Source of the DNA: an uncultured Collinsella sp.
GTDB lineage: Bacteria > Actinomycetota > Coriobacteriia > Coriobacteriales > Coriobacteriaceae
Direction: 5' to 3'
DNA length: 64,000 bases
Assembly: GCA_949288855.1 (NCBI GenBank)
Contig: CASELS010000001.1
Location: forward strand, 68,479 to 132,478
The notes below the pieces were generated by a model. That model searched no databases and was not told the DNA's origin. It was given only the letters and a program-made list of their open reading frames with translations. Below, one piece after another: positions 6,841 through 34,522 of this stretch; within the stretch, counting starts at the first letter, position 1; the number at the start of each line of letters is the position of its first letter. Position numbers and translations under genes: made by a program.

Positions 6841-6901
6841 ACAAGTGACGTAGCGTAGCGTAAATTACAGACAGGGAAGACTTGAGCTTCGGGAGGGATT
6901 C

Positions 6902-7498: not shown

Positions 7499-7573
7499 GA
7501 GACTCAAAGGGCATATACCGCGATTTCGGCTATAGGTACGCGGCACGGGCCGCGCAGAGATGAGGAGGACACA

Positions 7574-7906
7574 ATGGCTATTACGGTGAATCTGTATTAC
7601 ACGGGCGAGAACGGCGCGGCGCGCAAGTTCGCGGAGGAGATGGAGGCGTCCGGTACGGCCGACGCCATCCGTGCCGAGGAAGGCAACGTGCGCTACCGCT
7701 ACTTCCAGCCGCTCGATGACTCGGAGACGGTGCTGCTTATCGACGCATGGCGCGACCAGGAGACGATCGATGCCCACCACGCCTCGCCTATGATGGCAAA
7801 GATCGCGGAGCTACGCGATAAGTACGACCTGCACATGACGGCCGAGCGCTACGTCACGGACGAGGCGGGCCTTCCCGACCATGACCAGGCGTTTATTCGA
7901 AAGTAG
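7574..7906 (+). CDS. ABM-family (putative quinol monooxygenase) protein
   Basis: IRAEEGNVRYRYF...W..Q..IDAHHASP; strong GAGGAGG RBS. Confidence 0.85.
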   Translation: MAITVNLYYTGENGAARKFAEEMEASGTADAIRAEEGNVRYRYFQPLDDSETVLLIDAWRDQETIDAHHASPMMAKIAELRDKYDLHMTAERYVTDEAGLPDHDQAFIRK

Positions 7907-7913
7907 GCGCTCT

Positions 7914-11556: not shown

Positions 11557-11575
11557 GGCACCCCTCCCATCTGGA

Positions 11576-11614
11576 TCACTGACAGTATAGCTCAGTGACA
11601 ATGTCAGTGACAAT
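11576..11614 (-). promoter_or_regulatory. Promoter TTGTCA-18-TATACT overlaid by TCACTGA(CA) repeats
   Basis: Minus-strand -35 at 11608-11613 and -10 at 11584-11589; TCAGTGACAAT direct repeat plus inverted TCACTGACA. Confidence 0.55.
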
Positions 11615-11648
11615 ATTGGCAGAGGAATACGGGATTGATAGCGTAAGC

Positions 11649-12545
11649 CTAGCCAGTGGATTGCTGTGCCAGTAGCTCGTCCAAGAACAGCTGCGCGGCG
11701 TGGGGGAGGGCCACATCGCGCTTCCACGCAAAGTCAATGGGTGCGACGGCGGGTGGATAGAGCAAACGAAACGCCAGACCGGTGCCCGACCCCGTGGCGT
11801 TGAGCCCCTCGTAGCCAATCATGCGGCCTGCGCCCTCGCGTACAAAGACCGCCGCGTTGAAGTTGAGGTTGTAGGTTGCCGCCACCTCGATATCGTCCGC
11901 GTGCGGGCCGAGCCAGGTGGCGAAGATGCCCGCCGGCGCATCACCTTGCCAGAGGCGCTCGGGCACGATGAGCGGAGTGTCGCCCAGGTCGGCGGGGCCG
12001 ACGGTTTCCTGGGCGGCGAGTGGGTCGTTCTCGCGCATGATGACGCCCCAGGCATCGGTAGGACGCAGCCTCAGGTGCGCGAAGCGTTCGATATCGGCAT
12101 AGTTCATGAGCACGGCGAAGTCGTCCACACCGCGCTCGAGCCGCTCCACGAGGTCGATGGCGTTGGCGCTGTGCAGGTGGAAGCGCACGCCAGGATAACG
12201 CTCGCGAAAGGCGCGCGCCGCCTGCGCGATGACGCGCACGCCCTGGCTCTCGCCAGCACCGATGCGAACGTCCCCGGCAACGATCTCGTCGGGACAGGTG
12301 AAGTCCGAGGCTGTTTGGTCAGCGAGGCCGACGATTTCCTCGGCACGCCGGCGCAGGTAAAGGCCGCGCTCAGTAGGGGTGACGCTTCTGCTGTGCCGCT
12401 CGAGCAGTTGCGTACCCAGTTCGCGCTCGAGTGCGGCGATCTGTCGTGAGAGCGCCGGTTGCGTCACATGCAAAACCTCGGCGGCATGCGACATGGTGCC
12501 CTCTTGGCAGACGGCGAGAAAGTAGCGCAGGGTGCGAAGCTCCAC
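11649..12545 (-). CDS. LysR-family regulator (paralog of 1473-2348)
   Basis: MELRTLRYF...VTQPALSRQ. Confidence 0.95.
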   Translation of the reverse strand: MELRTLRYFLAVCQEGTMSHAAEVLHVTQPALSRQIAALERELGTQLLERHSRSVTPTERGLYLRRRAEEIVGLADQTASDFTCPDEIVAGDVRIGAGESQGVRVIAQAARAFRERYPGVRFHLHSANAIDLVERLERGVDDFAVLMNYADIERFAHLRLRPTDAWGVIMRENDPLAAQETVGPADLGDTPLIVPERLWQGDAPAGIFATWLGPHADDIEVAATYNLNFNAAVFVREGAGRMIGYEGLNATGSGTGLAFRLLYPPAVAPIDFAWKRDVALPHAAQLFLDELLAQQSTG

Positions 12546-12670
12546 AGTGCCTCCTAACCATAAGTGTCACTCATATCACACTATAGAACATAAGTAATAG
12601 TAATTTATGCTGCATCGCGCGAAACTAAGGCCAGGTAGAGTTGGCGCGCTGAGAGAAGGTGGTGAGGCGG

Positions 12671-13045
12671 ATGCGAGGCGAACGATCGAATCGCATCAAG
12701 TTGGATTTCGATGCCTGCTCCGCCACGGCGCTTCTTAAGGACACGGCGTCCGCTGGCGCGTTTGCTGAGCTGCTGCCGCTGTCGCTCACCGCCTGCTGCA
12801 CGGGCGTGGCGCTTTGTGCCGCCATGCCCTGCGCCCTTCCGGTTGACGCTGACGAGGTGCATCGCGGCTGGTGCAATGGCGACATCGCCTACAACCCGGC
12901 GGGCGGATGGCTCTCGGTGCTCATCGGCGACGAAGAGAACTCGCTGCGCTACGGCGATCAGGTGACGCTCGGCCACATTGAGGGCGACTTCGAGGCGCTG
13001 CGCGCACTCGAAGGCCGTCAATCGCTGCGCATCGCGCTCGTGTAA
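12671..13045 (+). CDS. Cyclophilin-like fold protein
   Basis: AFAELLPLSL...GDIAYNPAGGWLSV...LGHIEG. Confidence 0.7.
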   Translation: MRGERSNRIKLDFDACSATALLKDTASAGAFAELLPLSLTACCTGVALCAAMPCALPVDADEVHRGWCNGDIAYNPAGGWLSVLIGDEENSLRYGDQVTLGHIEGDFEALRALEGRQSLRIALV

Positions 13046-13055
13046 GGAGGACCTG

Positions 13056-14033
13056 ATGGCAGATATCGCAAACACATTGGGGAGCATGTTCTCGCTCATC
13101 ATCGTGACGGTGCTGGGCTATGTGGCGGCGCGCTGCGGGTTCCTCTCTGCCGATATCCGCCCCAAGCTCTCGGGCCTTATCTTCAACATCACGCTACCGT
13201 GCACGATTCTCGCCTCGGTGGGAGAGGTCGATGCCTCCACGGATGCTGAGGCCATCACCTGGTCGCTCGTGCTTGCAGCAGCCCTCTTCTTCGTGATGCT
13301 CGCGGGCGGCGTGCTCGCCAACCTCGTGCTGCGCACCTCGCGTGCCGAGCGGAGCCTCTACCTTTGGATGGGCGTGCTCACCAACACGGGCTTTATCGGT
13401 TTTGCGGTGCTCGAATCAATCTTTGGTGGTCCGAGCGTGTTTCTGGGGAGTATCTTCATCGCCATCTCGAACGTCTTTCTCTACAGCCTGGGCGTGGCGG
13501 TGCTGCGCTCGGGCGGTACGCGCGGCGATGGTGCGGCCGTGAACGGCGCGCCCCTCCGACGCACCATCGATATGCGCGGCATGCTGCGCGATATGGTGAA
13601 CGTGCCTTTGGTGGCAAGCCTTATTGCGATGGTGGTTTTCTTCGCGCGGGTTCCCATACCTGTCCCCATCATGCAGGCGGCAAGCATGGCGGGCGGGGTC
13701 ACCTCGCCCTTGGCCATGATGCTCGTGGGCCTCTCGATTGCCGACGCCAATCTGGGTGCCGTGCTCGGGCAACCGCGCCTTTGGGGCTTCACCCTCATCC
13801 GCTTCCTCGCGGTGCCGCTTGCGGTGTACGTACTGCTGGCGCCGGTGGTGCCGAGCGCGCTTGCCCTCGGCGTCTTTGTGGTGATGCTCGCCATGCCCAC
13901 GGGCTCCATGGCAGGCCCCATCGCGGCAACCTATGGGCAAGACGGTGAGCTCCCTGCGCAGGGGACCATCGTTTCGACCATCGCGAGCTTCGCCATCGTG
14001 CCCGCGCTCATAACCGCCATGAACTTGGGCTAA
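13056..14033 (+). CDS. AEC-family transporter
   Basis: About 10 TM helices; NITLPCTI, TNTGFIG, SPLAMMLVG and LAMPTG. Confidence 0.85.
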   Translation: MADIANTLGSMFSLIIVTVLGYVAARCGFLSADIRPKLSGLIFNITLPCTILASVGEVDASTDAEAITWSLVLAAALFFVMLAGGVLANLVLRTSRAERSLYLWMGVLTNTGFIGFAVLESIFGGPSVFLGSIFIAISNVFLYSLGVAVLRSGGTRGDGAAVNGAPLRRTIDMRGMLRDMVNVPLVASLIAMVVFFARVPIPVPIMQAASMAGGVTSPLAMMLVGLSIADANLGAVLGQPRLWGFTLIRFLAVPLAVYVLLAPVVPSALALGVFVVMLAMPTGSMAGPIAATYGQDGELPAQGTIVSTIASFAIVPALITAMNLG

Positions 14034-14160
14034 ATCCGCATGTTCAGTTCGCTTATGAGCGTGAGATAGCGCGTTGCGAGATATGGGCACCTAAGTCTCA
14101 CTTGTATTGGTAACCGGGGCGGGCCGGCACCCTCGAAAGCCGGCAGAAAAGGAGATCAAT

Positions 14161-17987: not shown

Positions 17988-18821
17988 ATGCACAGCATTT
18001 CAAGAAGGGCTTTTATCGGGGGCGCAGGGTCGCTGGCGGTGCTGGCGGGCCTCGGGCTTGCCGGTTGCGGCGGCACGGATGCCGGCTCGGGCTCGACGGC
18101 GACGAGCGGCAATCTCCTCGACACGATCGTGGAGGGCGGCAAGATGACCTTTGCGACCGAGGGCACCTGGAGTCCGTGGACGTTCCACAACGCAGACGAC
18201 GAGCTGACCGGTTTTGATATCGAGGTCGCCCGCGCTATCGCTTCCGAGCTCGACGTAGAGGCGGTCTTTGCCGAGGGCGAGTGGGACGGCCTGCTCGCGG
18301 GCCTTGACTCGGGGCGTTTCGATACCATGGCAAACGGCGTCTCGGTCACGCCCGAGCGCGAGGAGCGCTATGACTTTACCGAGCCCTACGCCTACAACCG
18401 CATCGTGGTCATCACCATGGATGACTCCGACATCTCCAGCATGGAGGACCTCGACGGCAAGCATACGGCCAACACGCTCGGTTCGAGTTATGCCACACTC
18501 GCCGAGAGCTTTGGCGCGACCAACACCGGCGTGGACGATTTCAACCAGACCATCGAGCTCCTCGAGCAGGGGCGTATCGACGCCACGCTAAACGACGAGG
18601 TCGTGTTCTACGACTACATGAAGGCGCACCCCGACGCACCGCTCAAGATCGCTGCCGAGAACGCCGATCCTACGCCCGTGGCATTCCCGCTGCGTAAGGG
18701 CGAGGAGACGGCGGAGCTGCGTGAGGCCATGAACGGGGCGATTGATGCGCTGCGCGAGAACGGCATGCTCTCGAGCCTCTCGGAGGAGTTCTTTGGCGTC
18801 GACATCACGAGTGAGTCGTAG
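17988..18821 (+). CDS. Amino acid ABC substrate-binding lipoprotein with Tat-type signal
   Basis: SRRAFI twin-arginine motif, LAGC lipobox, TEGTWSPW and GFDIEV. Confidence 0.9.
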   Translation: MHSISRRAFIGGAGSLAVLAGLGLAGCGGTDAGSGSTATSGNLLDTIVEGGKMTFATEGTWSPWTFHNADDELTGFDIEVARAIASELDVEAVFAEGEWDGLLAGLDSGRFDTMANGVSVTPEREERYDFTEPYAYNRIVVITMDDSDISSMEDLDGKHTANTLGSSYATLAESFGATNTGVDDFNQTIELLEQGRIDATLNDEVVFYDYMKAHPDAPLKIAAENADPTPVAFPLRKGEETAELREAMNGAIDALRENGMLSSLSEEFFGVDITSES

Positions 18822-18891
18822 CGGGCGGAGCGCGACGCCGCGTGCGCAATCGCTTCCCCTGGGATTTTCCCTAGCGCACGGTATGTGTATC

Positions 18892-18924
18892 GAGGGCTCT
18901 CGGTTTGATTAGCCGAGAGCCCTC
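18892..18924 (+). terminator. Hairpin downstream of the ABC operon
   Basis: GAGGGCTCTCGG / CCGAGAGCCCTC 12-bp stem; no U tract. Confidence 0.6.
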
Positions 18925-18955
18925 TCGCGCTTCGGAAATGAATAAAGCAAGAATA

Positions 18956-18998
18956 AAAACATGTGTTCTATTATATCTAGTATAGAACAAAAGTTCGA
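18956..18998. promoter_or_regulatory. Two tandem LexA SOS-box-like sites
   Basis: AAAAC-ATGT-GTTCT (18956-18969) and TAGAAC-AAAA-GTTCGA (18983-18998), against the Gram-positive consensus GAAC-N4-GTTC. Confidence 0.6.
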
Positions 18999-19172
18999 AT
19001 CCAAGGTTCTCGATAGCTGCGAGTTCTTCTGCCCTATATGGCTCGTTGGACGTGACGTAAAATAAGCAGCATTTGGGCGTGTCTTTTCGGAAGCTGGAAA
19101 AGCTGGCGCCCCTGTCTATCTGATGGTTTGCGGCGGGCCACGCCGAGACGCTGGGCTGTGCAGCGTATTGGC

Positions 19173-19469
19173 ATGACGAGACGGAGTACGCAGATGTGGA
19201 TGATGGCGCTGGCGGCTATCGCTGGATTTTGCTTGGTGTTTATTGCAATCGCCTGTGTGCTGTTTCCACGGGTTCGAACGGCTGGCATTGTGGTGCTCTG
19301 CGTGCTTGCGCTCATTGCGGGGGCGCTCTATATGGTTTATGTCCACGAGACACCGCTAGCGCGCTGGGAGCGTATCAATGCCGATGAGATTGAGCGCCGC
19401 GACCGGGAGCTTGAGGAGAATATCTTCGCCCGCGCGACCCTAAAATGCCCTCTCTGGTCAAAAGGGTAG
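19173..19469 (+). CDS. Possible small two-TM protein or gene remnant
   Basis: Two hydrophobic segments followed by a charged tail; no clear RBS. Confidence 0.35.
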   Translation: MTRRSTQMWMMALAAIAGFCLVFIAIACVLFPRVRTAGIVVLCVLALIAGALYMVYVHETPLARWERINADEIERRDRELEENIFARATLKCPLWSKG

Positions 19470-19871
19470 GCAGAATAATAAAAGACCCCCTGTTGGACGA
19501 GAGGATTCGGGCCAGAGTAGGGGATGACGGCAACATTTGCGCAGGAAACGAATTCCTCCGCATGCCGCGATTGCTGGTTTGTCGTCTTTGGAGGGCATGA
19601 AGACGTTAAAAGTCATTATTCTAAGCGCTTCAATGACCATAAGGATGCGGAGCAAGCGTTTGGGCGCGGGCTCATCGTGGATGACGGTGGGATTCGATGT
19701 TTGACGTTGGGCATCGCTATCCCAAACCGCTTTGCGGCTGCCTAGGCAGCGTGGAGCGAAAACCTAAGGCGATAGTGGCAGAAGTATCCCCTTGAGCAGA
19801 AAACGCTGCATTAACCAATGATAAGACGACGCAAATCAGCGATTGGCTTATGCTAAATGCTATGACTAAGA

Positions 19872-19898
19872 AAATCTTATATAGAGAGACTTAGATTT
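19872..19898. promoter_or_regulatory. HAIR-like (HspR) operator upstream of clpB
   Basis: AAATCTTATAT-N5-GACTTAGATTT has the geometry of actinobacterial HAIR; TATAAC follows immediately downstream. Confidence 0.5.
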
Positions 19899-20016
19899 GT
19901 GTATAACCTCTCGCATAGCGGCTATAAGGTAGCTGACTGAACGAATGCTGCCCCGCAGGGCGGCGAGGTCGCTCGGCCTATCCAGCAGAGCGACCGCCCT
20001 AAGAGAGGTGATTCGC

Positions 20017-22644
<2,628 letters not shown>

Positions 22645-25080: not shown

Positions 25081-26067
25081 CTACTCGACGGTGAGGTCGG
25101 CGCGGGCGATCGCCTTCTCGAAGTCACGCGTGCCGCGGAAGACCTCCTGCTTGTAGGGGTTCACGCCGAGCTTCTTGGCGCGGTAGGCAATGTGGGCAAG
25201 GGCGGCCACATTGGCAGCGAGGGCGAGCACCGACACCACGAGGTTTACGGTCGGGTCGTTCACCGAGTCGGTAGAGAACACCGAGTAATCCTGAAACATG
25301 GGGAATACCTGGGCAAACATGCACCAGAGCGCGAGCGTGTTGGCACGGTTCTGAATCCAGCCGCCCTTGTTCCAGAAGAAGTTGGCCACGGTGGGCGCAA
25401 GCAGCAGCGCCAAGCCACAGTACCAGGCGTGGGTGGGCAGGCAGTTGTAGGTGTAGCAGAAGTTCCAGAGGTCGTAGGCGATGATGAAGACCCAGGTCAT
25501 ATCGGGCCAGAGCATATCGTCGCGCTTCTTGGAGGTGTAGATGCCCCACCAGCCGGTCATGCAGAAGATGTTCAGGATGCCGGCGATGCCGTTAAAGACG
25601 TTATGCCAGCCGCCCATGAGGGTGACGCCCTCGCTCGAGACCCAGGTGGTGCCCCAGGCGCGAACGGCGCTCTCAAAGTCCGAGACCACGGCGATCAGGA
25701 TGTTGATGGCAACGATCACAAACGGATAGGCGCGGAACCAGTGGCTTTTGCCCAGCGAGCCCCAGCGGTACTTCAAAATCATAAAGCCGATGCAGCCTGC
25801 TGTTGCGGCATAGAGCTTCGCATAGTGGAACCAGCTGTTCATGTAGACGTAGGTCGGGTTGGTGAGCGCCCATTCTGCTCCCGCCGCCGCGCCAATGTAG
25901 ATGGCGGCAAAGTAGACGGTGAGCGCTGCCGGGAGTGCGAGGAAGCACAGGATACCGCCGAGCTTTGAGCGGCGAGCGAATTCGTTGGCGAGGATGAGGG
26001 CGGCAAACACCAGCACCCATCCGAGCCACTGGAACGGAGCGTTCTCTCCGTACACTTGAAACAGCAT
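25081..26067 (-). CDS. DUF5692-family multi-pass membrane protein
   Basis: GGAGG RBS; WFHYAKLYA, NILIAV.SD, AYDLWNFCYTYNC and GWIQNRANTL. Family recalled from motifs. Confidence 0.75.
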   Translation of the reverse strand: MLFQVYGENAPFQWLGWVLVFAALILANEFARRSKLGGILCFLALPAALTVYFAAIYIGAAAGAEWALTNPTYVYMNSWFHYAKLYAATAGCIGFMILKYRWGSLGKSHWFRAYPFVIVAINILIAVVSDFESAVRAWGTTWVSSEGVTLMGGWHNVFNGIAGILNIFCMTGWWGIYTSKKRDDMLWPDMTWVFIIAYDLWNFCYTYNCLPTHAWYCGLALLLAPTVANFFWNKGGWIQNRANTLALWCMFAQVFPMFQDYSVFSTDSVNDPTVNLVVSVLALAANVAALAHIAYRAKKLGVNPYKQEVFRGTRDFEKAIARADLTVE

Positions 26068-26187
26068 GCAGCCTCCTTCGAACATGCCCTGAACGGGCGC
26101 GGTTGCAGGCGATAGCGCAGGCATGCGGGATAGGGGACCGTTCCCCGTGCGAACGACCCGGCTCGCCGATTTCAGTCTTGACCGGAG

Positions 26188-26225
26188 TTGACGATATGTC
26201 AATCTCTTATTTGACGAAACGTCAA
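26188..26225. promoter_or_regulatory. Two TTGAC-N5-GTCAA palindromes in the divergent DUF5692/hypB promoter
   Basis: TTGACGATATGTCAA (26188-26202) and TTGACGAAACGTCAA (26211-26225). Confidence 0.75.
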
Positions 26226-26249
26226 CACTTTCCGACGAACGGCGGTGCC

Positions 26250-26936
26250 ATGGCTGATTATCGCGTTATCGAGGTTAAGCAGAGCGTGTTTGCCGACAAC
26301 GACCGCAAGGCGGACGAGCTCCGTGCGCGGCTCAGGCGCGAGGGCACGTTTTTACTGAACCTCATGTCGAGCCCCGGCTCGGGTAAGACCACAACGCTTC
26401 TGCGTACCATCGAGGCGCTTGCGGGCGAGCTCTCGATTGCGGTGATGGAGGCGGATATCGACTCCGATGTCGACGCGCGCACCATCGCAGGCGCGGGCGT
26501 GCGCTCTATCCAGCTTCACACGGGCGGCATGTGCCATCTCGATGCGTATATGACCGAGCAGGGACTCGATGCGCTTCGCGCGGAGGACCCCGCACTCGTT
26601 GACCTCGCAATTTTGGAGAACGTGGGCAACCTTGTGTGCCCGGCAGAGTTTGATACGGGGGCCTCTGCCAACGCGATGATCCTCTCGGTCCCCGAGGGGG
26701 ACGACAAGCCGCTTAAGTACCCGCTCATGTTCTCGGTCTGCGACGTGGTGCTCATCAACAAGATCGACGCGCTGCCGATATTCGATACGTTCAGTATGGA
26801 CCGCGTGCGCGAGAACATCGCCTGCCGCAACCCTGCAGCGCAGGTCATTCCCATCTGCGCTAAAACAGGGGAGGGCATTGACGCGTGGGCGGAGTGGCTG
26901 CGCGAGCGCGTCGCCACTTGGAAAAGCGGCGCCTAG
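26250..26936 (+). CDS. hypB: Nickel metallochaperone GTPase HypB
   Basis: SSPGSGKTT, GGMCHLDA, ENVGNLVCPA, EGDDKPLKYP and NKID. Confidence 0.95.
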   Translation: MADYRVIEVKQSVFADNDRKADELRARLRREGTFLLNLMSSPGSGKTTTLLRTIEALAGELSIAVMEADIDSDVDARTIAGAGVRSIQLHTGGMCHLDAYMTEQGLDALRAEDPALVDLAILENVGNLVCPAEFDTGASANAMILSVPEGDDKPLKYPLMFSVCDVVLINKIDALPIFDTFSMDRVRENIACRNPAAQVIPICAKTGEGIDAWAEWLRERVATWKSGA

Positions 26937-26986
26937 CGCCGAGGTGCGCGGCCGCGTCAGACGGGCGGCCGCGGCACCCATCCGGT

Positions 26987-27055
26987 AATGCACGGTTTGA
27001 CCCCGTCCCCATCTGTGCATCCATGCCTGCGAATGCACAGTTTGAACCCGTCCCC
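26987..27055 (+). repeat. Two 24-bp direct repeats AATGCAC(G/A)GTTTGA(C/A)CCCGTCCCC (REP-like)
   Basis: Copies at 26987-27010 and 27032-27055; a third, inverted copy lies at 42082-42106. Confidence 0.8.
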
Positions 27056-27097
27056 AAATACGTCCAAATGCGCCAGTTACGTGCGAAAGGAACGAGC

Positions 27098-29896
27098 ATG
27101 ATCTTGAACGGCCCCGGCATCTCCTATACCGAGCCCGATATCGGCGCGGAGTTTGTGCCACCGCTGCCCGAGCATCCGCGTGAGAAGATCGTCGCGCTCT
27201 GCAAGCATCTCACCAACCGCACCCTCGGCAAGGGCAATCTCCTGCCGTACGAGTACTGGGCGTTTGAGAGCGTGACGACCGACGAGATGGCAGACGTGCT
27301 GCTCAAGCTCAAGGTGCGCCGCCCCTACACGTTTGAGGAGGCCCAGCGCGCGACAGGGCTTGCGGCAGATGTGCTGCGTCCGCTGCTCGATGAGATGAGC
27401 GAGATTGGCCTTCTGGAGTACAACTGGGAGAATCCCGCGCGTACCAAGCAGTGGGTGAGCCCCATTTTGGTGCCGGGATCGGCCGAGTTCCTCAACATGC
27501 GTTGGGAGCAGATGAAGGAGCATCCCGCGACGGCAAAGTTCTTCGAGCAGGCATCAAAGGGCCCGCTCTCGCGCATCACGCCCATGGTGCCGCCGGGCGG
27601 TGCGGGCATAGGCATGCACGTCATCCCCGTCGAGCAGGCCATCGAGACCGAAAACAGAAGCGTCTCCATCGAGCACATCGGCCATTGGCTCGACAAGTAC
27701 GACGGCAAGTACGCGGCGAGCCCCTGCAGCTGCCGTATGAGCAGAAGCGTGCTCGGCGAGGCCTGTGGCGACGATCCGGCCGACTGGTGCATCGCGGTGG
27801 GCGACATGGCCGACTACGTGGTGGAGACCGGCAAGGGCGGCCGCTACATCACGCGCGACGAGGTGATGGAAATCCTCCAAAAGGCGGAGGACAACGGCTT
27901 TGTGCACCAGATCACCAACATCGACGGCGAGAACAAGATCTTTGCCATCTGCAACTGCAACGTGAACGTGTGCTACGCGCTGCGCACCTCGCAGCTCTTC
28001 AACACGCCCAACCTCTCGCGGTCGGCATACGTTGCGCGCACAGAGGCGGACAAGTGCGTCGCCTGCGGCCGTTGCGTGGAGGTGTGCCCGGCGGGCGCCG
28101 TCAAGCTCGGGCAGAAGCTGTGCGAGAAGGCCACGGGCAAGGTTCCCGCCTACCCCAAACAGGAGCTTCCTGACGCGGTTTCGTGGGGGCCCGAGAAATG
28201 GTCGCCCGACTATCGCAGCAAGAACCGCATCGAGACCTACGAAGCGGGCACGGCGCCCTGCAAGACGGCCTGCCCGGCGCACATTGCGGTGCAGGGCTAC
28301 CTCAAGCTCGCGGCGCAGGGACGCTATACCGAGGCGCTCGCCCTCATCAAGCGCGAGAACCCGCTGCCCGCCATCTGCGGGCGCATCTGCAACCGCCGCT
28401 GCGAGGACGCCTGCACGCGCGGACGGGTGGACGAGGCCATCGCCATCGACGAGGTGAAGAAGTTCATTGCTGCGCGCGACCTCGACGAGCAGACGCGCTA
28501 CATCCCGCCCAAGGTGATTCCGCGCGTGGAGGGCGCCTTTGACGAGAAGATTGCCATCATCGGCGCCGGCCCGGCAGGCCTTAGCTGCGCGTTTTATTTG
28601 GCAGAGCGCGGCTATAAGCCTGTGGTGTTTGAGAAGAGCGCGCGCCCGGGCGGCATGCTCGCCTACGGTATCCCCTCCTACAAGCTCGAGAAAGACATCA
28701 TCGCGGCGGAGGTTGCCGTTATCGAGGCCATGGGTGTCGAGTTCCGCTTTGGCGTGGAGGTGGGGCGCGATGTGACGCTCGCGGACCTGCGCGCCGAGGG
28801 CTACCGTGCGTTCTACGTGGCCATCGGCTGCCAGGCGGGCCGTCTGCCGGGTATTCCCGGCGAGAAGGCCGAGGGCGCGTTGACCGCGGTCGACTTCTTG
28901 CACGGTGTGGCTGAGGCGCAGGACTCGGGTGGCGAGATGAGCACACTTACCGGGCGTACCATCGTGGTCGGTGGCGGCAACGTTGCCATCGACGCGGCGC
29001 GCACCGCCTCGCGTCTGGGATCGCCCCACGTGGAGATGTTCTGCCTCGAGCAGGAGGACGAGATGCCGGCAAGTGCGGAGGAGGTGCGCGAGGCCGTGGA
29101 GGACGGTGTCCATATCAGCCATGGCTGGGGTCCTCTTGAGGTGCGTACCGACGATGCGGGCCATGTGAGCGAGGTCGTCTTCCGCCGTTGTACGCGTGTC
29201 TACGATGACGAGGGTCGCTTTGCGCCCGTCTATGACGATGCGGAGCTCCGCACCGTTGCGGCGGACCGCGTGATCTTCTCCATTGGCCAGGGCGTGGCAT
29301 GGGGCGAACTTCTTGCCGGGAGCGCGGTCGAGTTCGGCCGCGGCGGTACGGCGGTGGCCGACACGCAGACCTATCAGACCGCCGAGCCCGATATTTTTGT
29401 GGGCGGCGACGCCTTTACGGGGCCCAAGTTTGCTATCGACGCCATCGCCGCAGGGCACGAGGCGGCGGTATCGCTCCATCGCTACGTGCAGGGGGCGACC
29501 CTCACTATCGGCCGTAACCCGCGCGCCTATCGCGAGCTCGATAAGGATGCCGCGGACCTGGCGAGCTACGATACCGCGAGCCGCCAGCAGCCCGCGGTGA
29601 AGCCCGACCTCGGCCGAGTCGACGCTCCCTTCCGCGAGTACACGGCAACCTTTACTGAGGAGCAGGTGCGTGCCGAGACTGCGCGCTGCCTGGGCTGCGG
29701 GGCGAGCATTGTGGACGAGAACAAGTGCATCGGCTGCGGCCTTTGCACTACTAAGTGCGCGTTCGACGCAATCCATCTGCATCGCGAGCACCCCGAGGCA
29801 AGCACGATGATCAAGTACGAGGACAAGCTCCCGGCGATTGGCAAGTACGCCCTCAAGCGCGCTATCAAGATCAAGTTTGGCAAGCGGGGCAAGTAG
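27098..29896 (+). CDS. Large Fe-S flavoprotein oxidoreductase (Cys-rich N-domain + ferredoxin + GltD-like FAD/NAD(P)H module + ferredoxin)
   Basis: PCSCR..C..WC and ICNCNVNVC; CVACGRCVEVCP; APCKTACP and ICGRICNRRCEDAC; GAGPAG and GGGNVA; RCLGCG and CIGCGLCTTKC. Confidence 0.9.
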   Translation: MILNGPGISYTEPDIGAEFVPPLPEHPREKIVALCKHLTNRTLGKGNLLPYEYWAFESVTTDEMADVLLKLKVRRPYTFEEAQRATGLAADVLRPLLDEMSEIGLLEYNWENPARTKQWVSPILVPGSAEFLNMRWEQMKEHPATAKFFEQASKGPLSRITPMVPPGGAGIGMHVIPVEQAIETENRSVSIEHIGHWLDKYDGKYAASPCSCRMSRSVLGEACGDDPADWCIAVGDMADYVVETGKGGRYITRDEVMEILQKAEDNGFVHQITNIDGENKIFAICNCNVNVCYALRTSQLFNTPNLSRSAYVARTEADKCVACGRCVEVCPAGAVKLGQKLCEKATGKVPAYPKQELPDAVSWGPEKWSPDYRSKNRIETYEAGTAPCKTACPAHIAVQGYLKLAAQGRYTEALALIKRENPLPAICGRICNRRCEDACTRGRVDEAIAIDEVKKFIAARDLDEQTRYIPPKVIPRVEGAFDEKIAIIGAGPAGLSCAFYLAERGYKPVVFEKSARPGGMLAYGIPSYKLEKDIIAAEVAVIEAMGVEFRFGVEVGRDVTLADLRAEGYRAFYVAIGCQAGRLPGIPGEKAEGALTAVDFLHGVAEAQDSGGEMSTLTGRTIVVGGGNVAIDAARTASRLGSPHVEMFCLEQEDEMPASAEEVREAVEDGVHISHGWGPLEVRTDDAGHVSEVVFRRCTRVYDDEGRFAPVYDDAELRTVAADRVIFSIGQGVAWGELLAGSAVEFGRGGTAVADTQTYQTAEPDIFVGGDAFTGPKFAIDAIAAGHEAAVSLHRYVQGATLTIGRNPRAYRELDKDAADLASYDTASRQQPAVKPDLGRVDAPFREYTATFTEEQVRAETARCLGCGASIVDENKCIGCGLCTTKCAFDAIHLHREHPEASTMIKYEDKLPAIGKYALKRAIKIKFGKRGK

Positions 29897-29943
29897 AGGA
29901 GGCCGGCGCGACCGTTGGACTTGCGCGTTGGGAAAGGAGCGCC

Positions 29944-30300
29944 GTGCACGAGCTCGGGATTGTCTTTCACATCATCAAAAGTGTCGAGGAGATCGCTGCC
30001 GAGGCCCGCATAGGGCGGGTCTCGGCGGTGACGCTCGAGCTCGGCGAGGTGTCGGGCATCATGCCGAGCTACCTTCAGGACTGCTGGCGCTGGGCATGCG
30101 ACAAGCACGAGGTGATGCGCGGATGCGAGCTTGTGGTGGAAGAGATTCCCGCGCGCACGTTTTGCGAGGCATGCGGCACCACCTATAAGACCGTGGCGCA
30201 CGGTCGCATCTGCCCCGCATGTGGCAGCGATAACACCTATCTCGTGCAGGGCAACGAGGCCATGATCAAAGAGATCGCCACCCCGGAGGAAGGTGCCTGA
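29944..30300 (+). CDS. hypA: Nickel metallochaperone HypA
   Basis: GTG start giving MHELG (Ni-binding MHE), plus CEAC and CPAC Zn site. Confidence 0.93.
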   Translation: MHELGIVFHIIKSVEEIAAEARIGRVSAVTLELGEVSGIMPSYLQDCWRWACDKHEVMRGCELVVEEIPARTFCEACGTTYKTVAHGRICPACGSDNTYLVQGNEAMIKEIATPEEGA

Positions 30301-30301
30301 C

Positions 30302-30931
30302 TCAGCGCTCCGGGCGGCGCTCGGGGTATTTCTCGGTGTAGCCCTCGATGTGCAGCGTGCTTGCGATGACGTCCTTGATGACGGTCTCCTCTACATCGGG
30401 GTGCGAGCGGATGAAGAGGATGAGACCGCTGATGAGGATGTAGAACGTCTCGTAGACGTGGTCGATCAGCACCTCGTGGTAGCGCGAGAAGTCGACGACC
30501 GTGGTCTCGCACATAAAGCGAGCGCAGCGCTCGGCCACGCGATGCACAAAGGCGGTGTAGAGCACGGCGTCACCATCGGCGGCGATGGAACGCGAGAGGT
30601 CGGGGGTCTCCACCACCAAGGTCTTGAGTAGATGAGATATGCCGTCGAGCGCGCCCTCGATATCGCCCCTCACGCGTTCGCGGTCCCAGGCGCGCAGCCG
30701 GTCGATAAAGGCGTCGATGGTGAGCTCGAGCGCGGCGTCAAAGGCCGCCTCTTTGCTGGGGAAGTAGTGATAGAACAGCGAGCGGGTGCAGCCCACGCGG
30801 GCGGTGACGCTTGAAACGGATAGGCGCGAGAGCCCCTGCTCGGCGCAGACGGCCACGACGGCGCGCAGAATCTCGTCGCGCCGCTCGTCATGCGAGTGGC
30901 GCACGCGGCTGTGCTCGGTATGCTTTTCCAT
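30302..30931 (-). CDS. TetR-family regulator
   Basis: VSSVTARVGCTRSLFYHYFPSKE helix-turn-helix. Confidence 0.9.
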   Translation of the reverse strand: MEKHTEHSRVRHSHDERRDEILRAVVAVCAEQGLSRLSVSSVTARVGCTRSLFYHYFPSKEAAFDAALELTIDAFIDRLRAWDRERVRGDIEGALDGISHLLKTLVVETPDLSRSIAADGDAVLYTAFVHRVAERCARFMCETTVVDFSRYHEVLIDHVYETFYILISGLILFIRSHPDVEETVIKDVIASTLHIEGYTEKYPERRPER

Positions 30932-31002
30932 AGCGGCCTCCCCAACGGGGACGAAGGTCCCCAACGTGCTCTAGGGCGGGATGATGTTAGTTTGCCGCGT
31001 CG

Positions 31003-31017
31003 TTAACAGTACGTCAA
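31003..31017. promoter_or_regulatory. Third copy of the TTGAC-N5-GTCAA operator, upstream of tetR
   Basis: TTAACAGTACGTCAA, with one mismatch in the arms. Confidence 0.6.
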
Positions 31018-31139
31018 TACGCCGCATACCTACATTTGAAGCCGGTTTACAGACTTGTCACGAGGGCGCGAGCATGCGCGCGTATGATGGGAGGCAACGG
31101 GCGCCAAGCGCGCGCCCGCTGCGACGGAAGGGGGCCGCC

Positions 31140-32084
31140 ATGGACGGACAGCATAGCGTTGTGGTGTTCGGCAGCATGAACATGGACCTCTCGGTGGCGT
31201 GCGAGCGCATACCCGAGGCGGGCGAGACCATTGCGGGGAGCGACTTCTTTACGGCGGCGGGCGGCAAGGGCGCAAACCAGGCGGTCGCTGCAGCGCGCCG
31301 CGGGGCCACAACCTACATGATTGCGGCCGTGGGTGATGACGGCTTTGGCCGCGAGCTCACGGCGGGGCTTGAGGACGCCGGGGTTGATTGCGCAAACGTG
31401 GCTCATCTTACCGATGTCCCCACGGGCACCGCCACGATCTTACGCAGTGGCGGGGACAACCGCATCGTGCTTTCAGCCGGCGCGAACGCGGTGCGCACAC
31501 CCGAGGATGTCGAGAGCGTGATCGATGAGCTGGTGGCATCTGGCGCGGCGCCTATGGGCAGCGTCTTCATTGCCCAAGGCGAGTGCGACCTGGGCGCTAC
31601 GGCAGCGGCGCTTGTGCGCGCACACCGGCACGGGCTTTTCACTATCTTTAACCCGGCTCCTGCCTGCAACCTGCCCAAAGAGGCGTGGCACGAGGTCGAT
31701 CTTGTGTGCCTGAACGAGACCGAGTGCGCCGCCATCACGGGGGCCATGCCGGTGGACGAAGCGTCCTGCACCGCGGCTCTCAAAAAGATTGAGGAGCTCA
31801 CCGACGGCGGCATGGGCGTCATCACGCTTGGCTCCGCCGGGTCGGTCGCGCTTATTGACGATGACTTCATGCATGTGCCGGCCCAGCGCTGCGAGGCCGT
31901 GGACACCACGGGCGCGGGGGACACCTATATTGGCGTGTTCGCTGCAGCGCGTGCCGCGGGCGAGCTTATCTTTGAGTGCATGATACAGGCGTCGTTTGCC
32001 TCGGGGCTCGCGGTCACGCGCTTGGGCGCGCAGTCTTCCATCCCTACGTGGGACGAGGTTGTCGCTTGGATGATGGGCTGGTAG
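31140..32084 (+). CDS. rbsK: Ribokinase (PfkB family)
   Basis: GSMNMD, GGKGANQA, LNETE and VDTTGAGDTY. Confidence 0.85.
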   Translation: MDGQHSVVVFGSMNMDLSVACERIPEAGETIAGSDFFTAAGGKGANQAVAAARRGATTYMIAAVGDDGFGRELTAGLEDAGVDCANVAHLTDVPTGTATILRSGGDNRIVLSAGANAVRTPEDVESVIDELVASGAAPMGSVFIAQGECDLGATAAALVRAHRHGLFTIFNPAPACNLPKEAWHEVDLVCLNETECAAITGAMPVDEASCTAALKKIEELTDGGMGVITLGSAGSVALIDDDFMHVPAQRCEAVDTTGAGDTYIGVFAAARAAGELIFECMIQASFASGLAVTRLGAQSSIPTWDEVVAWMMGW

Positions 32085-32168
32085 CCACCGAGGCCGGAGC
32101 GTCATGTTGCAACAGGCACGCTGCTGCCGCTGGATTGGTGGTGCGGCTGCTGGGGGAGAGGAGCTGAG

Positions 32169-33128
32169 ATGAAAAAGCTGATACTCGATCTTGATATGGG
32201 CGTGGACGATGCCATGGCGCTCGCCTATGCGCTCGCAAGTCCCGAGGTAGAGCTCATTGGCATCACAACGGTGTTTGGCAACGTGCCCTGCGCCCAGTCC
32301 GTGGAGAACTGCCTTGCCATGCTCGAGCTCCTCGGCCATCCCGAGGTGCCGGTCGTTGCCGGTGCGGACCGGGCGCTTGCGGCTACGGCGCCCTATACCA
32401 CGATGGTAGACGTGCACGGTACCAACGGCCTTGGCGGGGTTGCGCTGCCTGAGCCCACGCGCGAGGCCGTGGGCAAGTCCGATGCCGAGGGCGGCGCTGC
32501 GGTCGACTTCCTGCTGGACGCTGCGCGCACCTGGGGAAGCGACCTCATCTACGTCCCCACCGGTCCTCTGACAAACCTAGCGCTCGCCGCCCGCCGTGAT
32601 GCGGAGGCGCTGCGTGCCATTGGCGGCATCGTCTTCATGGGTGGTGCCCTCACCATCCCCGGCAACGTCACGCCGGGCGCCGAGGCAAACATCGCCAACG
32701 ACCCGGAGGCGGCTGACGCCGTTTTGCGCTCGGGCGTGCCGGTGACCATGGTGGGGCTCGATGTTACGCATCAGACGATTCTGCCTTTTGACGAGCTTGA
32801 TTGCTGGCGGGCGCTTGGCACCCCGGCGGGCGCAGCCTTTGCCGATATCGTGGGCTATTACTTCAATTTCTATCTGGAGCATCAGGGTTACCTCGGCGGA
32901 TGCGCCCTGCACGACCCGCTTGCGGTGGCGATCGCACTTGACCCCACACTTGCGGGCACGCTCGACATCAACCTCAAGGTCGATCTGGACGGGCCCTTCC
33001 GCGGGCGCACCATTGGCGACCCTCTGCGCCTGCATGATCCGCAAAAGTCTGCCAAGGTCGCCGTGACCGTGGACGCGCCCCGCTTTGTCGAGCGCTTCTG
33101 CGAGCGCGTTCGCCAAGCGCTCGGATGA
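32169..33128 (+). CDS. Inosine/uridine-preferring nucleoside hydrolase
   Basis: DLDMGVDDA, HGTNG, GPLTN, EAN and LHDP. Confidence 0.92.
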   Translation: MKKLILDLDMGVDDAMALAYALASPEVELIGITTVFGNVPCAQSVENCLAMLELLGHPEVPVVAGADRALAATAPYTTMVDVHGTNGLGGVALPEPTREAVGKSDAEGGAAVDFLLDAARTWGSDLIYVPTGPLTNLALAARRDAEALRAIGGIVFMGGALTIPGNVTPGAEANIANDPEAADAVLRSGVPVTMVGLDVTHQTILPFDELDCWRALGTPAGAAFADIVGYYFNFYLEHQGYLGGCALHDPLAVAIALDPTLAGTLDINLKVDLDGPFRGRTIGDPLRLHDPQKSAKVAVTVDAPRFVERFCERVRQALG

Positions 33129-33235
33129 GCGGGCGTGCCGCCTCGTTAGCGTATGCAAGCGCGCATCTCGGCCGTACGCAGGAGTGAGTCTGGTACCCTT
33201 AGACTCATCTGGATATATGTGAAAGGAGCCCATCC

Positions 33236-33919
33236 ATGGAGGCTTATAAGCAGGAGTTTATCGAGTTCATGGTCGAGTCCGACGTGCTCAAGTTCGGCGA
33301 GTTCACGCTCAAGAGCGGCCGCAAGTCGCCGTTTTTCATGAACGCGGGGGCGTACGTGACGGGCGAGCAGCTCAAGCGCCTGGGCGAGTACTACGCGCGC
33401 GCCATTCACGATAACTTTGGCCTCGATTTTGACGTGGTGTTTGGCCCCGCCTACAAGGGCATTCCGCTCGCGGTGGTCACGGCAATCGCGCTTCACGACC
33501 TCTACGGCAAGGAGGTCCGTTACTGCTCCGACCGCAAGGAGGTCAAGGACCACGGCGCCGACAAGGGCGGCATGCTTGGCTACGAGCTCAAGGACGGTGA
33601 CCGCGTTGTTATGGTCGAGGACGTCACGACTTCGGGCAAGTCCATCGACGAGACTTATCCCAAGCTCATGGCTGCGGCAGACGTCGAGGTGAAGGGGCTC
33701 ATCGTTAGCCTCAACCGCATGGAGGTCGGCAAGGGCGGCGTCACCACGGCCCAGAAGGAGATTGAGGCAAAGTACGGTTTCCCCGTGGCGTCGATTGTGT
33801 CGATGGCCGAGGTCACCGAGGTGCTTCACGACCACGAGGTCGGTGGTCGCGTGGTGATTGACGACGCGATCAAAGACGCGCTCGACGCCTACTACGAGCA
33901 GTACGGCGCCAAGGAATAG
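33236..33919 (+). CDS. pyrE: Orotate phosphoribosyltransferase
   Basis: FGEFTLKSGRKSP, GPAYKGIP, RKEVKDHG and VEDVTTSG. Confidence 0.95.
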   Translation: MEAYKQEFIEFMVESDVLKFGEFTLKSGRKSPFFMNAGAYVTGEQLKRLGEYYARAIHDNFGLDFDVVFGPAYKGIPLAVVTAIALHDLYGKEVRYCSDRKEVKDHGADKGGMLGYELKDGDRVVMVEDVTTSGKSIDETYPKLMAAADVEVKGLIVSLNRMEVGKGGVTTAQKEIEAKYGFPVASIVSMAEVTEVLHDHEVGGRVVIDDAIKDALDAYYEQYGAKE

Positions 33920-33967
33920 GCAGGTAGCGCCCTCGAGCAGGGCGTAGGTTCGAATGGGGGAGGACCC

Positions 33968-34522
33968 ATGAAAAAGAAGTTCATCGTACCGATTATGGCG
34001 TTGTTTGCCGCGTGCCTTTTGGTGCTCACCGGATGCGGCGGCCCTTCTGCCGAGCAGCTCATTCGCGAGGACCTCGAGGCGCAGTTCGCTGAGGTCAAAG
34101 CCGATAACGGAGAGATGCTTGAGGCCATCGAGAGCTCGGCGGGCGAGAATTTCGATTCGCTTGGCATCGACCCCGGTGAGTTTATGAATACCTACCTGGA
34201 TGGTTTTGCGTACACCATCAACGAGATCACGGTTGAGGACAAGACGGCCAATGCCAACGTAACCGTTACGGCGAAGTCGATGGGTGATATCGTGAACGAG
34301 TTCCAGCTGCAGTTCACCGAGTATCTCTCCGGCATCGACCTCACGACGATTTCGGGCGAGGAAGAGCTCTTCCAGCAGGCCGGCCAGATTCTGTTGGAGG
34401 TTGCTCAGAGCGTCGAGCCCCAGGAAGTCGACTGCAACTTTACCTACTCGCAGGACGACGAGGGCGTCTGGAGCGCCGACGAGAGCGCTGCGAGTGAGCT
34501 CACGAACGCTCTCATGAGCTAA
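33968..34522 (+). CDS. Acidic lipoprotein of unknown function
   Basis: MKKK signal peptide and LTGC lipobox. Confidence 0.8.
   Translation: MKKKFIVPIMALFAACLLVLTGCGGPSAEQLIREDLEAQFAEVKADNGEMLEAIESSAGENFDSLGIDPGEFMNTYLDGFAYTINEITVEDKTANANVTVTAKSMGDIVNEFQLQFTEYLSGIDLTTISGEEELFQQAGQILLEVAQSVEPQEVDCNFTYSQDDEGVWSADESAASELTNALMS

What the first reader, a model, noticed from the sequence alone, without database searches (positions are those of the whole stretch)
25081..31017. Orphan HypB/HypA flanking a large Fe-S flavoprotein, co-regulated with a DUF5692 membrane protein: candidate new nickel-dependent redox system
Seen: the order is hypB - 932-aa oxidoreductase - hypA, with no hydrogenase, urease, CODH or hypCDEF genes in the window. 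Both chaperones keep their metal ligands (MHE and two CxxC; CH and the C in CPA). The enzyme's N-domain has non-ferredoxin Cys clusters (CSCR..C..C; CNCNVNVC). A DUF5692 gene is divergent and a TetR is convergent. Known: HypA and HypB deliver Ni. Inference: the enclosed flavoprotein, or the membrane partner, is the metal client. The NAD(P)H module may exchange electrons with the DUF5692 protein to transform the TetR's inducer molecule.
Basis: partly seen in the sequence, partly recalled or inferred. Interest (0 to 1): 0.82.

Follow-up and report, generated by a model that had tools for sequence, protein, structure and literature searches.

The report
IsrA-type reductase with own nickel chaperones
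A gut Collinsella-like bacterium has a regulated gene cluster in which the nickel chaperones HypB and HypA flank a large iron-sulfur flavoenzyme; it belongs to the "putative isoprene reductase" (IsrA) family published in 2023, a suspected nickel enzyme that has not been tested biochemically in any paper I could find.

Summary

The cluster is not new. The flavoprotein is 46% identical over 919 residues to IsrA of Acetobacterium wieringae. It has the same N-terminal Cys6 site with two CxC motifs. Kronen et al. 2023 (PMC10134865) already reported HypA, HypB, DUF5692 and TetR as its typical neighbours and proposed nickel insertion. This scan has also reached the same reading on other genomes.

"Orphan" holds only for the window. 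The genome has hypFCDE and an Ech-type [NiFe]-hydrogenase on other contigs.

The chaperone pair is nevertheless dedicated to the cluster:
- Relatives that carry the cluster also have a second, housekeeping hypAB pair.
- Cluster HypBs from four phyla group apart from those housekeeping copies.
- Coriobacterium glomerans and 19 genomes of a sister family keep the cluster without HypD.
- In that family, HypA is present almost exactly where the enzyme is.

New here: a conserved pair of TTGAC-N5-GTCAA palindromes upstream of hypB, the likely TetR operators.

The substrate, nickel dependence and the role of DUF5692 remain unproven.

The parts
25081..26067 (-). DUF5692 polytopic membrane protein (328 aa from ATG 26067; the longest ORF reaches 26202)
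   Evidence: PF18948, 461 bits. GGAGG lies 5-6 nt upstream of ATG 26067. It is 59-91% identical to cluster-linked DUF5692 proteins of other phyla. The AF2 model is an 8-9 helix bundle with no informative PDB match.
26188..26225 (.). Two 15-bp palindromes, TTGACGATATGTCAA and TTGACGAAACGTCAA, 23 bp apart, in the DUF5692/hypB divergent promoter region; candidate TetR operators
   Evidence: These are the only two exact TTGAC-N5-GTCAA matches in the 64 kb window. Sites occur in this intergenic region in all 11 TetR-bearing clusters checked: as a pair 22-24 bp apart in 10, and as a single exact site in L019. Three of those loci carry one mismatch per site. No exact site occurs in 6 TetR-less clusters.
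26250..26936 (+). hypB, cluster-dedicated paralogue (GTPase nickel chaperone without a His-rich or CxxCGC N-terminus)
   Evidence: TIGR00073 scores 224.7 bits, above its cut-off. The motifs were read. It is 47% identical to the housekeeping HypB of a same-genus genome. It groups with cluster HypBs of four phyla.
27098..29896 (+). IsrA-family ('clade 9') Fe-S flavoprotein, 932 aa. Layout: winged-helix-like subdomain and Cys6 subdomain (1-~310), [4Fe-4S] motif C320-C330, Fer4_20 plus FAD/NAD(P) module (~385-800), C-terminal ferredoxin motifs C864-C887
   Evidence: 46% identity over 919 aa to IsrA (P0328). Pfam and NCBIfam domains. Invariant Cys6. AF2 model and fold searches.
29944..30300 (+). 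hypA, cluster-dedicated paralogue (GTG start; MHE nickel motif, Zn(Cys)4)
   Evidence: PF01155, 100.5 bits. TIGR00100 scores 67.7 bits, below the 88.1 equivalog cut-off. Invariant residues. It is 35% identical to the housekeeping HypA of G002.
30302..30964 (-). TetR-family regulator (probable start ATG 30931), convergent with hypA
   Evidence: TetR_N, 39 bits. It is kept with the cluster in relatives. In Coriobacterium glomerans it has moved to sit upstream of DUF5692.
31003..31017 (.). One-mismatch copy of the palindrome (TTAACAGTACGTCAA) just upstream of tetR; possible autoregulation site, weak
   Evidence: An equivalent site was seen in one of five orthologous tetR promoters, so this is only a hint.

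Best explanation
This is a Coriobacteriaceae member of the IsrA ('putative isoprene reductase', clade 9) family of gene clusters.

Shown here:
- The 932-aa enzyme is a full-length IsrA homologue.
- It travels with its own HypB/HypA paralogues across phyla.
- It is often joined by DUF5692, plus a regulator: TetR here, GntR/FCD in most Firmicutes.

Inferred mechanism:
1. The TetR sits on the two TTGAC-N5-GTCAA operators between DUF5692 and hypB. It releases them when an unknown, probably hydrophobic unsaturated compound appears.
2. HypB (GTPase, Cys-His...Cys site) loads nickel onto the MHE N-terminus of HypA.
3. HypA inserts the nickel into the N-terminal Cys6 site of the enzyme (C210, C212, C231, C285, C287, C292, with H270 nearby). 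This creates a nickel-bearing Fe-S centre.
4. Electrons run from NAD(P)H through FAD and a chain of four [4Fe-4S] clusters to that centre. There a C=C bond of the substrate is reduced, by analogy with isoprene to methylbutene.
5. DUF5692 probably handles or delivers the substrate at the membrane.

My odds: family membership about 0.95. The pair is dedicated to the enzyme rather than to a hydrogenase, about 0.85. Nickel is actually inserted, about 0.6. The substrate is unknown. It is probably not isoprene itself, because the insert specific to the IsrA subclade is absent.
For: Identity of the reference protein:
- P0328 is the 901-aa A. wieringae protein from assembly GCA_902175055.1. It sits in the operon 901-aa enzyme / HypA 118 aa / HypB 225 aa / ferredoxin 350-376 aa / HypA 117 aa. 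Apart from small differences in gene calls, this matches the isr operon of PMC10134865.
- The window enzyme aligns to it at 46% identity over 919 aa, with the CxC...C...CxC....C pattern in register.

Synteny:
- The five-gene set is conserved in three genera of the family. One of them has a rearrangement that still keeps all five genes.
- In 80 loci from Actinomycetota, Bacillota, Spirochaetota, Mycoplasmatota and others, HypA is adjacent in 69, HypB in 66, both in 60 and DUF5692 in 48.

Dedicated paralogues:
- Same-family genomes with the cluster have two hypA genes, and those without it have one. G002 has two hypB genes.
- HypB tree: 27 cluster copies fall on one side of a branch (SH-aLRT 89) and 10 Coriobacteriales housekeeping copies on the other (SH-aLRT 99).

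Natural deletion tests:
- Coriobacterium glomerans PW2 (complete genome) has the cluster with its only HypA and HypB. It has no HypD, NiFeSe_Hases, Complex1_49kDa or Prismane match.
- In sister family f6 (41 genomes), 23 have the enzyme. 22 of those have HypA, which lies on the same contig just downstream in 20. The exception has the enzyme at a contig edge.
- 18 f6 genomes lack the enzyme, and 2 of those have HypA. Both are assemblies only 57% and 73% complete.
- 19 enzyme-bearing f6 genomes lack HypD.

Literature: isoprene-induced IsrA, HypA and HypB proteins in a strain without a [NiFe]-hydrogenase (PMC10134865).

Operators.
Against: - In no member of the family has the purified enzyme been assayed, nor have nickel content, activity or HypAB dependence been measured. 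I found no such report in the library up to 2026.
- This genome does have an Ech-type [NiFe]-hydrogenase with intact Ni ligands (RTCGICSHGH, DPCISCTER) and a hypFCDE operon without hypAB. No second hypAB pair is in its assembly, so a double duty for the cluster pair cannot be excluded here.
- No CbiM- or NicO-type nickel importer was found in this genome or in C. glomerans.
- The related genomes are kin, so the co-occurrence counts are not independent events.
- The HypB tree is a quick search, is unrooted and includes no housekeeping HypBs from Firmicutes.
Confidence: 0.7

Rival explanations
1. The cluster hypAB are simply the genome's hydrogenase maturation genes, serving the Ech-type [NiFe]-hydrogenase. 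Their position around the flavoprotein has no functional meaning.
For: The assembly shows only this hypA and this hypB. hypFCDE on contig C12 lacks hypAB, and an Ech-type large subunit with all Ni-Fe cysteines lies on C113.
Against: - The closest relative, G003, has a housekeeping hypA-hypB pair in an 8.9-kb stretch. Its flanks match the last bases of G000 contig C25 and a position about 40 nt from the end of C5. The pair therefore most likely falls in an assembly gap of this 89%-complete genome.
- Every other same-genus genome with the cluster has two hypA genes.
- The cluster copies are only 35% (HypA) and 47% (HypB) identical to the housekeeping copies and belong to a separate lineage.
- C. 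glomerans and 19 f6 genomes keep the cluster without HypD.
- Synteny is conserved across phyla.
Confidence: 0.05
2. The HypA/HypB paralogues do mature the flavoprotein, but not with nickel. They deliver another metal (Zn, Co or Fe), or they chaperone assembly of an unusual all-iron cluster at the Cys6 site.
For: - No nickel measurement exists for any family member.
- HypA scores below the NCBIfam equivalog cut-off (67.7 vs 88.1 bits), so it is a diverged paralogue.
- CobW/HypB/UreG-type GTPases handle several metals (general knowledge).
- No CbiM or NicO importer was found in two genomes that have the cluster.
Against: - The nickel-specific features are strictly conserved. The N-terminal MHE of HypA is invariant in 17 cluster copies. 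The window HypB has the Cys-His...Cys G-domain motif.
- HypB scores well above the HypB equivalog cut-off.
- Ordinary Fe-S clusters do not need HypAB.
Confidence: 0.2
3. The metal client or redox partner is the DUF5692 membrane protein, as the first reader offered as an alternative.
For: DUF5692 follows hypA in the same operon in most Firmicutes and Treponema loci. It has invariant His and Cys residues (H81, H213, C92, C217, C249).
Against: - 20 of the 60 loci with both chaperones lack DUF5692 within reach.
- The isr operon has two HypA and one HypB but no DUF5692.
- DUF5692 occurs once in G031 and G038 and four times in G032. None of these genomes has the full-length enzyme, and no copy lies near a hypA. 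The neighbours I checked were unrelated, apart from one TetR.
- Within family f1 it co-occurs with the enzyme, not with hypA as such.
Confidence: 0.05

Closest known systems
[quoted passage not shown] 2023, PMC10134865)
   Same: - Full-length homology: 46% identity over 919 aa.
- The same domain order.
- The same Cys6 site with two CxC motifs.
- Adjacent hypA and hypB.
- The paper's neighbourhood statistics already list HypA 0.73, HypB 0.56, DUF5692 0.40 and TetR_N 0.21.
- Its A. woodii-type 'cluster II' homologues have a TetR-type regulator and a hypothetical protein beside them.
   Different: - The order here is hypB-enzyme-hypA, with divergent DUF5692 and convergent TetR. The isr operon is isrA-hypA-hypB-fdx-hypA.
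- There is no second hypA and no N-domain-like ferredoxin.
- The ~26-residue insert that marks the isoprene-induced subclade is absent (gap).
- The host is a gut actinobacterium that also has a [NiFe]-hydrogenase.
- The substrate is unknown.
HypA/HypB of [NiFe]-hydrogenase maturation, which also serve urease in Helicobacter pylori
   Same: The same two protein families with the same metal-binding motifs. H. pylori is a precedent for a client that is not a hydrogenase.
   Different: These are separate paralogues, 35% and 47% identical to the housekeeping copies. They are linked to a flavoprotein and are kept in genomes without hypCDEF or a hydrogenase.
NfnB / GltD / DsrL-type Fe-S flavoproteins (glutamate synthase small-subunit family)
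   Same: The central Fer4_20 plus FAD/NAD(P) module.
   Different: All NCBIfam equivalogs score far below their cut-offs (for example PRK12771, 420 vs 516 bits). None of them has the ~310-residue N-terminal domain or the chaperone genes.
Ni-Fe-S centres of CO dehydrogenase / acetyl-CoA synthase
   Same: The idea of nickel attached to, or built into, a Cys-ligated Fe-S cluster. The 2023 paper makes this analogy.
   Different: There is no sequence or fold relation. The Prismane family is not found in the genome, and the fold searches found nothing for the Cys6 part. CODH/ACS use CooC/AcsF-type ATPases, not HypAB.

Membership tests
IsrA 'clade 9' oxidoreductases | Full-length (~900 aa) similarity to IsrA VUZ27132.1 | tested here: met
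   46% identity over 919 aa, E = 0, against P0328. I identified P0328 as IsrA by its length, its organism and its operon. Other Acetobacterium clade 9 members are 47-49% identical to IsrA according to the paper.
IsrA 'clade 9' oxidoreductases | N-terminal ~270-310 aa domain without a Pfam family, carrying six clustered Cys with two CxC motifs | tested here: met
   No Pfam hit for this domain. C210/C212, C231, C285/C287 and C292 are invariant in 12 homologues. The CxC-to-CxC spacing is 75 residues, against 74 in IsrA.
IsrA 'clade 9' oxidoreductases | Fer4_20 plus FAD/NAD(P) module flanked by two ferredoxin-type [4Fe-4S] motifs | tested here: met
   (C320-C330; C864-C887).
IsrA 'clade 9' oxidoreductases | hypA and/or hypB within a few genes | tested here: met
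   Both are directly adjacent. The same holds in 60 of 80 related loci.
IsrA 'clade 9' oxidoreductases | Placement inside clade 9 in the published nine-clade phylogeny | not tested
   The published tree's sequences were not on hand. Placement is inferred from the architecture and from identity to IsrA.
Isoprene reductase in the narrow sense (IsrA cluster I, isr operon) | The ~26-residue insert at IsrA 756-782; the operon isrA-hypA-hypB-fdx-hypA; induction by isoprene | tested here: not met
   The insert is absent (a 26-residue gap; only P0195 has an insert there). There is no extra ferredoxin and no second hypA. Induction cannot be tested with these tools.
HypB (TIGR00073) | Score above the equivalog cut-off; GTPase motifs; Cys-His...Cys nickel site | tested here: met
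   224.7 bits vs 121.2. GSGKT, NKID, MCH and VCPAE were read.
HypA (PF01155 / TIGR00100) | N-terminal MHE; two CxxC (Zn); score above the cut-off | tested here: inconclusive
   Pfam scores 100.5 bits vs 28.9, which is met. The motifs are invariant. The NCBIfam equivalog scores 67.7 bits, below 88.1. It is a HypA-family protein but a diverged paralogue.
[NiFe]-hydrogenase maturation system | Works together with hypCDEF and a [NiFe] large subunit | tested here: inconclusive
   Both exist in this genome on other contigs. The cluster persists in genomes that lack them.
DUF5692 (PF18948) | Pfam score above the cut-off | tested here: met
   461 bits vs 27.
Nickel enzyme (any) | Nickel bound and needed for activity | not testable with these tools
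   This needs metal analysis of the purified protein.

The most novel reading that the evidence does not exclude
The enzyme is a member of a new class of nickel enzyme: a Ni-bearing Fe-S centre in a Cys6 pocket that hydrogenates unactivated or conjugated C=C bonds. The gut and rumen subfamily with DUF5692 would use it on lipophilic dietary dienes, such as conjugated fatty acids or terpenoids. That would supply the long-sought reductase of bacterial biohydrogenation.
Probability: 0.3. Interest if true: 0.85.

Novelty: new member of a known kind. Interest (0 to 1): 0.45.

Why it matters
If nickel insertion is real, the IsrA family would be a further class of nickel enzyme and a new client type for HypA/HypB. 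The family is large: at least 8000 sequence clusters at 90% identity share the N-domain. It is common in gut and rumen anaerobes. It would also mean that hypA or hypB in a genome does not by itself imply a hydrogenase or a urease.

This window does not open that question, which was raised in 2023. It does add comparative support:
- The chaperone pair forms a separate paralogue lineage.
- The cluster survives in lineages without HypD or a hydrogenase.
- HypA tracks the enzyme in a family that mostly lacks HypD.

It also offers a candidate TetR operator, which gives a practical way to search for the inducer and therefore the substrate.

Tried and rejected
- Complex prediction of HypA with the N-domain gave no verdict. 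I do not use it either way.
- N-domain model, Foldseek against the PDB: nothing at E <= 0.001.
- N-domain model, VIA wide search: only the winged-helix-like part (residues ~45-125) matched ArsR/MarR-type folds, at Z about 7. That is within the noise range the tool states. The Cys6 part matched nothing.
- DUF5692: no Foldseek hit, only generic 7-helix bundles at Z <= 8.4, and no Atlas feature hit.
- Neighbours of stand-alone DUF5692 copies gave no functional hint.
- Recurrent neighbours of the 80 loci gave regulators (GntR/FCD in 36, TetR in 7), MatE, ABC transporters and ClpB. None points to a substrate.
- The flanks in the window are unrelated and not conserved: ClpB, a HAD hydrolase, an esterase, a PfkB kinase, a nucleoside hydrolase and GntR.
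- Apparent enzyme-HypA fusions in two f6 genomes (open frames of 830 and 1148 aa) are probably open alternative frames in GC-rich DNA rather than fusions.
- CbiM and NicO importers were not found in G000 or in C. glomerans. NikABCDE-type systems were not tested.
- A weak Urease_alpha hit (22.8 bits, partial) in C. glomerans is set aside. There is no UreG-like gene, because the genome's only cobW-family match is the cluster HypB.
- Expression: no RNA holder is listed. The two runs labelled 'RNA-Seq' are probably DNA.
- Literature searches for biochemistry of IsrA, or for a cloned conjugated-linoleate reductase, found none.


Full report
**What is there**

- DUF5692 at 25081-26202(-), PF18948, 461 bits.
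- HypB at 26103-26936(+), TIGR00073 224.7 bits against a cut-off of 121.2.
- A long ORF whose 932-aa product starts at 27098 and ends at 29896.
- HypA at 29944-30300, with a GTG start, PF01155 100.5 bits.
- A TetR at 30302-30964(-).

The enzyme has a GltD/NfnB-like core (Fer4_20 plus Pyr_redox_2) between two ferredoxin-type motifs. Its first ~310 residues match no Pfam family.
- HypA begins MHE and has CEAC and CPAC.
- HypB has GSGKT, NKID, MCH and VCPAE.
- The N-domain has CSCR...C and CNCNVNVC.

**The genome is not free of hydrogenase**

The window lies on contig C1 of a 1.96-Mb assembly of 126 contigs that is 89% complete.
- A hypF-hypC-hypD-hypE operon without hypAB is on C12.
- A 362-aa Ech-type [NiFe] large subunit with RTCGICSHGH and DPCISCTER is on the 3-kb contig C113.
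- Urease alpha and Prismane/CODH were not found.
- A LarA-like gene is present.

Only the cluster hypA and hypB are in the assembly. This is probably an assembly artefact. In the closest relative, G003, a housekeeping hypA-hypB pair lies in an 8.9-kb stretch. Its left flank matches the last 1.9 kb of G000 contig C25, up to its final base. Its right flank matches a position about 40 nt from the end of C5.

**It is the published IsrA family**

The only paper in the library that mentions DUF5692 is Kronen et al. 2023, PMC10134865. It reports the following:
- An isoprene-induced operon in Acetobacterium wieringae ISORED-2: isrA-hypA-hypB-fdx-hypA.
- A 901-aa enzyme with an unassigned N-terminal ~270 residues and a Cys6 site with two CxC motifs, proposed to bind nickel.
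- No [NiFe]-hydrogenase or hypCDEF in that strain.
- A neighbourhood analysis of 988 'clade 9' homologues with co-occurrence of HypA 0.73, HypB 0.56, DUF5692 0.40 and TetR_N 0.21.

I recovered IsrA itself as P0328: 901 aa, A. wieringae, assembly GCA_902175055.1, in exactly that operon. The window enzyme aligns to it at 46% identity over 919 residues, with the cysteine pattern in register. It lacks the ~26-residue insert of the isoprene subclade.

In 12 homologues that are 29-81% identical in the N-domain, C210, C212, R213, C231, H270, C285, N286, C287 and C292 are invariant.

The family is large. At least 8000 clusters at 90% identity share the N-domain, and 1353 representatives at 50% identity do.

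Later preprints on Pelotomaculum report strong hypA and hypB induction by isoprene but contain no enzymology. Earlier reports of this scan reached the same IsrA reading on other genomes. I had found the paper before I opened them.

**Synteny**

Among 40 relatives, the N-domain and DUF5692 occur in exactly the same family-f1 genomes. One of these is Coriobacterium glomerans PW2, identified through P0017.

All five genes are kept in four more distant loci. In C. glomerans the TetR has moved to sit upstream of DUF5692.

In 80 named loci from the species collection, HypA is adjacent in 69, HypB in 66, both in 60 and DUF5692 in 48. The hosts include Collinsella, Enorma, many Lachnospiraceae and Oscillospiraceae, rumen and gut Treponema, Erysipelotrichaceae, Mollicutes, Christensenellaceae and Emergencia. 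The usual order is hypB-enzyme-hypA-DUF5692 on one strand, followed in 36 loci by a GntR/FCD regulator. The TetR version is confined to Coriobacteriaceae.

**The chaperones are dedicated**

1. Copy number. Same-family genomes with the cluster have two hypA genes and those without it have one. G002 has a housekeeping hypA-hypB pair elsewhere, and G005, which lacks the cluster, has only such a pair.
2. Divergence and phylogeny. The cluster copies are 35% (HypA) and 47% (HypB) identical to the housekeeping copies. They are 65-68% identical to cluster HypAs of other genera and 42-61% identical to those of other phyla. In a HypB tree, 27 cluster copies from four phyla are one side of a branch (SH-aLRT 89) and 10 Coriobacteriales housekeeping copies are the other (SH-aLRT 99). 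The tree was a quick search, is unrooted and contains no Firmicutes housekeeping copies.
3. Coriobacterium glomerans. This complete genome has the cluster with its only HypA and HypB. It has no match to HypD, NiFeSe_Hases, Complex1_49kDa or Prismane. It has only a weak LarA-like hit and a borderline partial urease-alpha hit, and no UreG.
4. Class sample. Among 151 genomes of the class, 10 genomes that are at least 99% complete have the full-length enzyme but no HypD.
5. Sister family f6, 41 genomes:
   - 23 have the enzyme. 22 of them have HypA, and in 20 it lies just downstream on the same contig. The exception has the enzyme at a contig edge.
   - 18 lack the enzyme. Only 2 of them have HypA, and both are assemblies 57% and 73% complete.
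   - HypD is present in only 7. 19 enzyme-bearing genomes lack it.

These genomes are kin, so the counts show a pattern and are not a statistical test.

**Regulation**

Two palindromes sit 24-62 nt upstream of the hypB ATG, in the region shared with the divergent DUF5692: TTGACGATATGTCAA (26188-26202) and TTGACGAAACGTCAA (26211-26225).
- They are the only exact TTGAC-N5-GTCAA matches in the window. With one mismatch allowed there are 4 matches against 0.97 expected.
- Paired sites 22-24 bp apart recur in the same intergenic position in 10 of the 11 TetR-bearing clusters checked. Three of those carry one mismatch per site. The eleventh, C. glomerans (L019), has a single exact site.
- No exact site occurs in six TetR-less clusters.
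- A one-mismatch copy lies upstream of tetR (31003-31017).

This is sequence evidence only.

**What remains open**

- The N-domain model (pLDDT 73) has a winged-helix-like subdomain. Its Cys6 subdomain has no PDB match.
- DUF5692 is a highly conserved helical membrane protein, 59-91% identical across phyla. It has no recognisable fold relative or cofactor motif. It also occurs away from the enzyme.
- No neighbour points to a substrate. The 2023 paper notes an oleate hydratase beside some homologues, and earlier notes of this scan suggest fatty-acid hydrogenation. I could not test that here.
- Nickel itself is unproven.

**Verdict**

This is a new member of a known kind.

Noticed in passing
G000 contigs C25 (end, 18326-20216) and C5 (40267-40670), compared with L026 (G003 C17:100000-113000): The housekeeping tatC-like/hypA/hypB region of the closest relative falls exactly between two contig ends of this assembly. 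The genome's 'single' hypAB pair is therefore probably an assembly gap.
   Followed up: partly
L023 (G036 C9:16000-30000), about 6249-8427: In another family, a ~490-aa protein that carries only the IsrA-like N-domain (27% identity over 227 aa) is followed directly by a second, very divergent hypA and hypB. The housekeeping pair is on another contig. Similar short N-domain proteins (428-503 aa) occur in six more genomes of the class. The Cys6 domain, rather than the flavoprotein core, may be what the chaperones follow.
   Followed up: partly
f6 genomes G191, G201, G213: Three genomes have HypD but no HypA match at E <= 1e-10, so hydrogenase maturation there seems to do without HypA.
   Followed up: no
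L045:12301-13281(-) and 35 other loci: In Firmicutes and Treponema a GntR/FCD-type regulator stands after DUF5692, where the Coriobacteriaceae have a TetR. The regulator was exchanged while the four-gene core was kept.
   Followed up: partly
G184 (C1:76112 and C2:60006); L081:7968-10697(+) and 11314-14064(-): Some genomes carry two full-length copies of the enzyme. In L081 the two copies are convergent around a single hypA.
   Followed up: no
window 25081-31017 in public runs: Contigs 90-99% identical to the whole cluster occur in several chicken-gut and other gut metagenome studies. No run holds half or more of the exact 31-mer words, so these are related strains rather than this one.
   Followed up: partly
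window 19945-22644, 30981-34000: The flanks are ClpB, a HAD hydrolase and an esterase upstream, and a PfkB-type kinase, a nucleoside hydrolase, a phosphoribosyltransferase and GntR downstream. The downstream set looks like a nucleoside salvage locus unrelated to the cluster.
   Followed up: no
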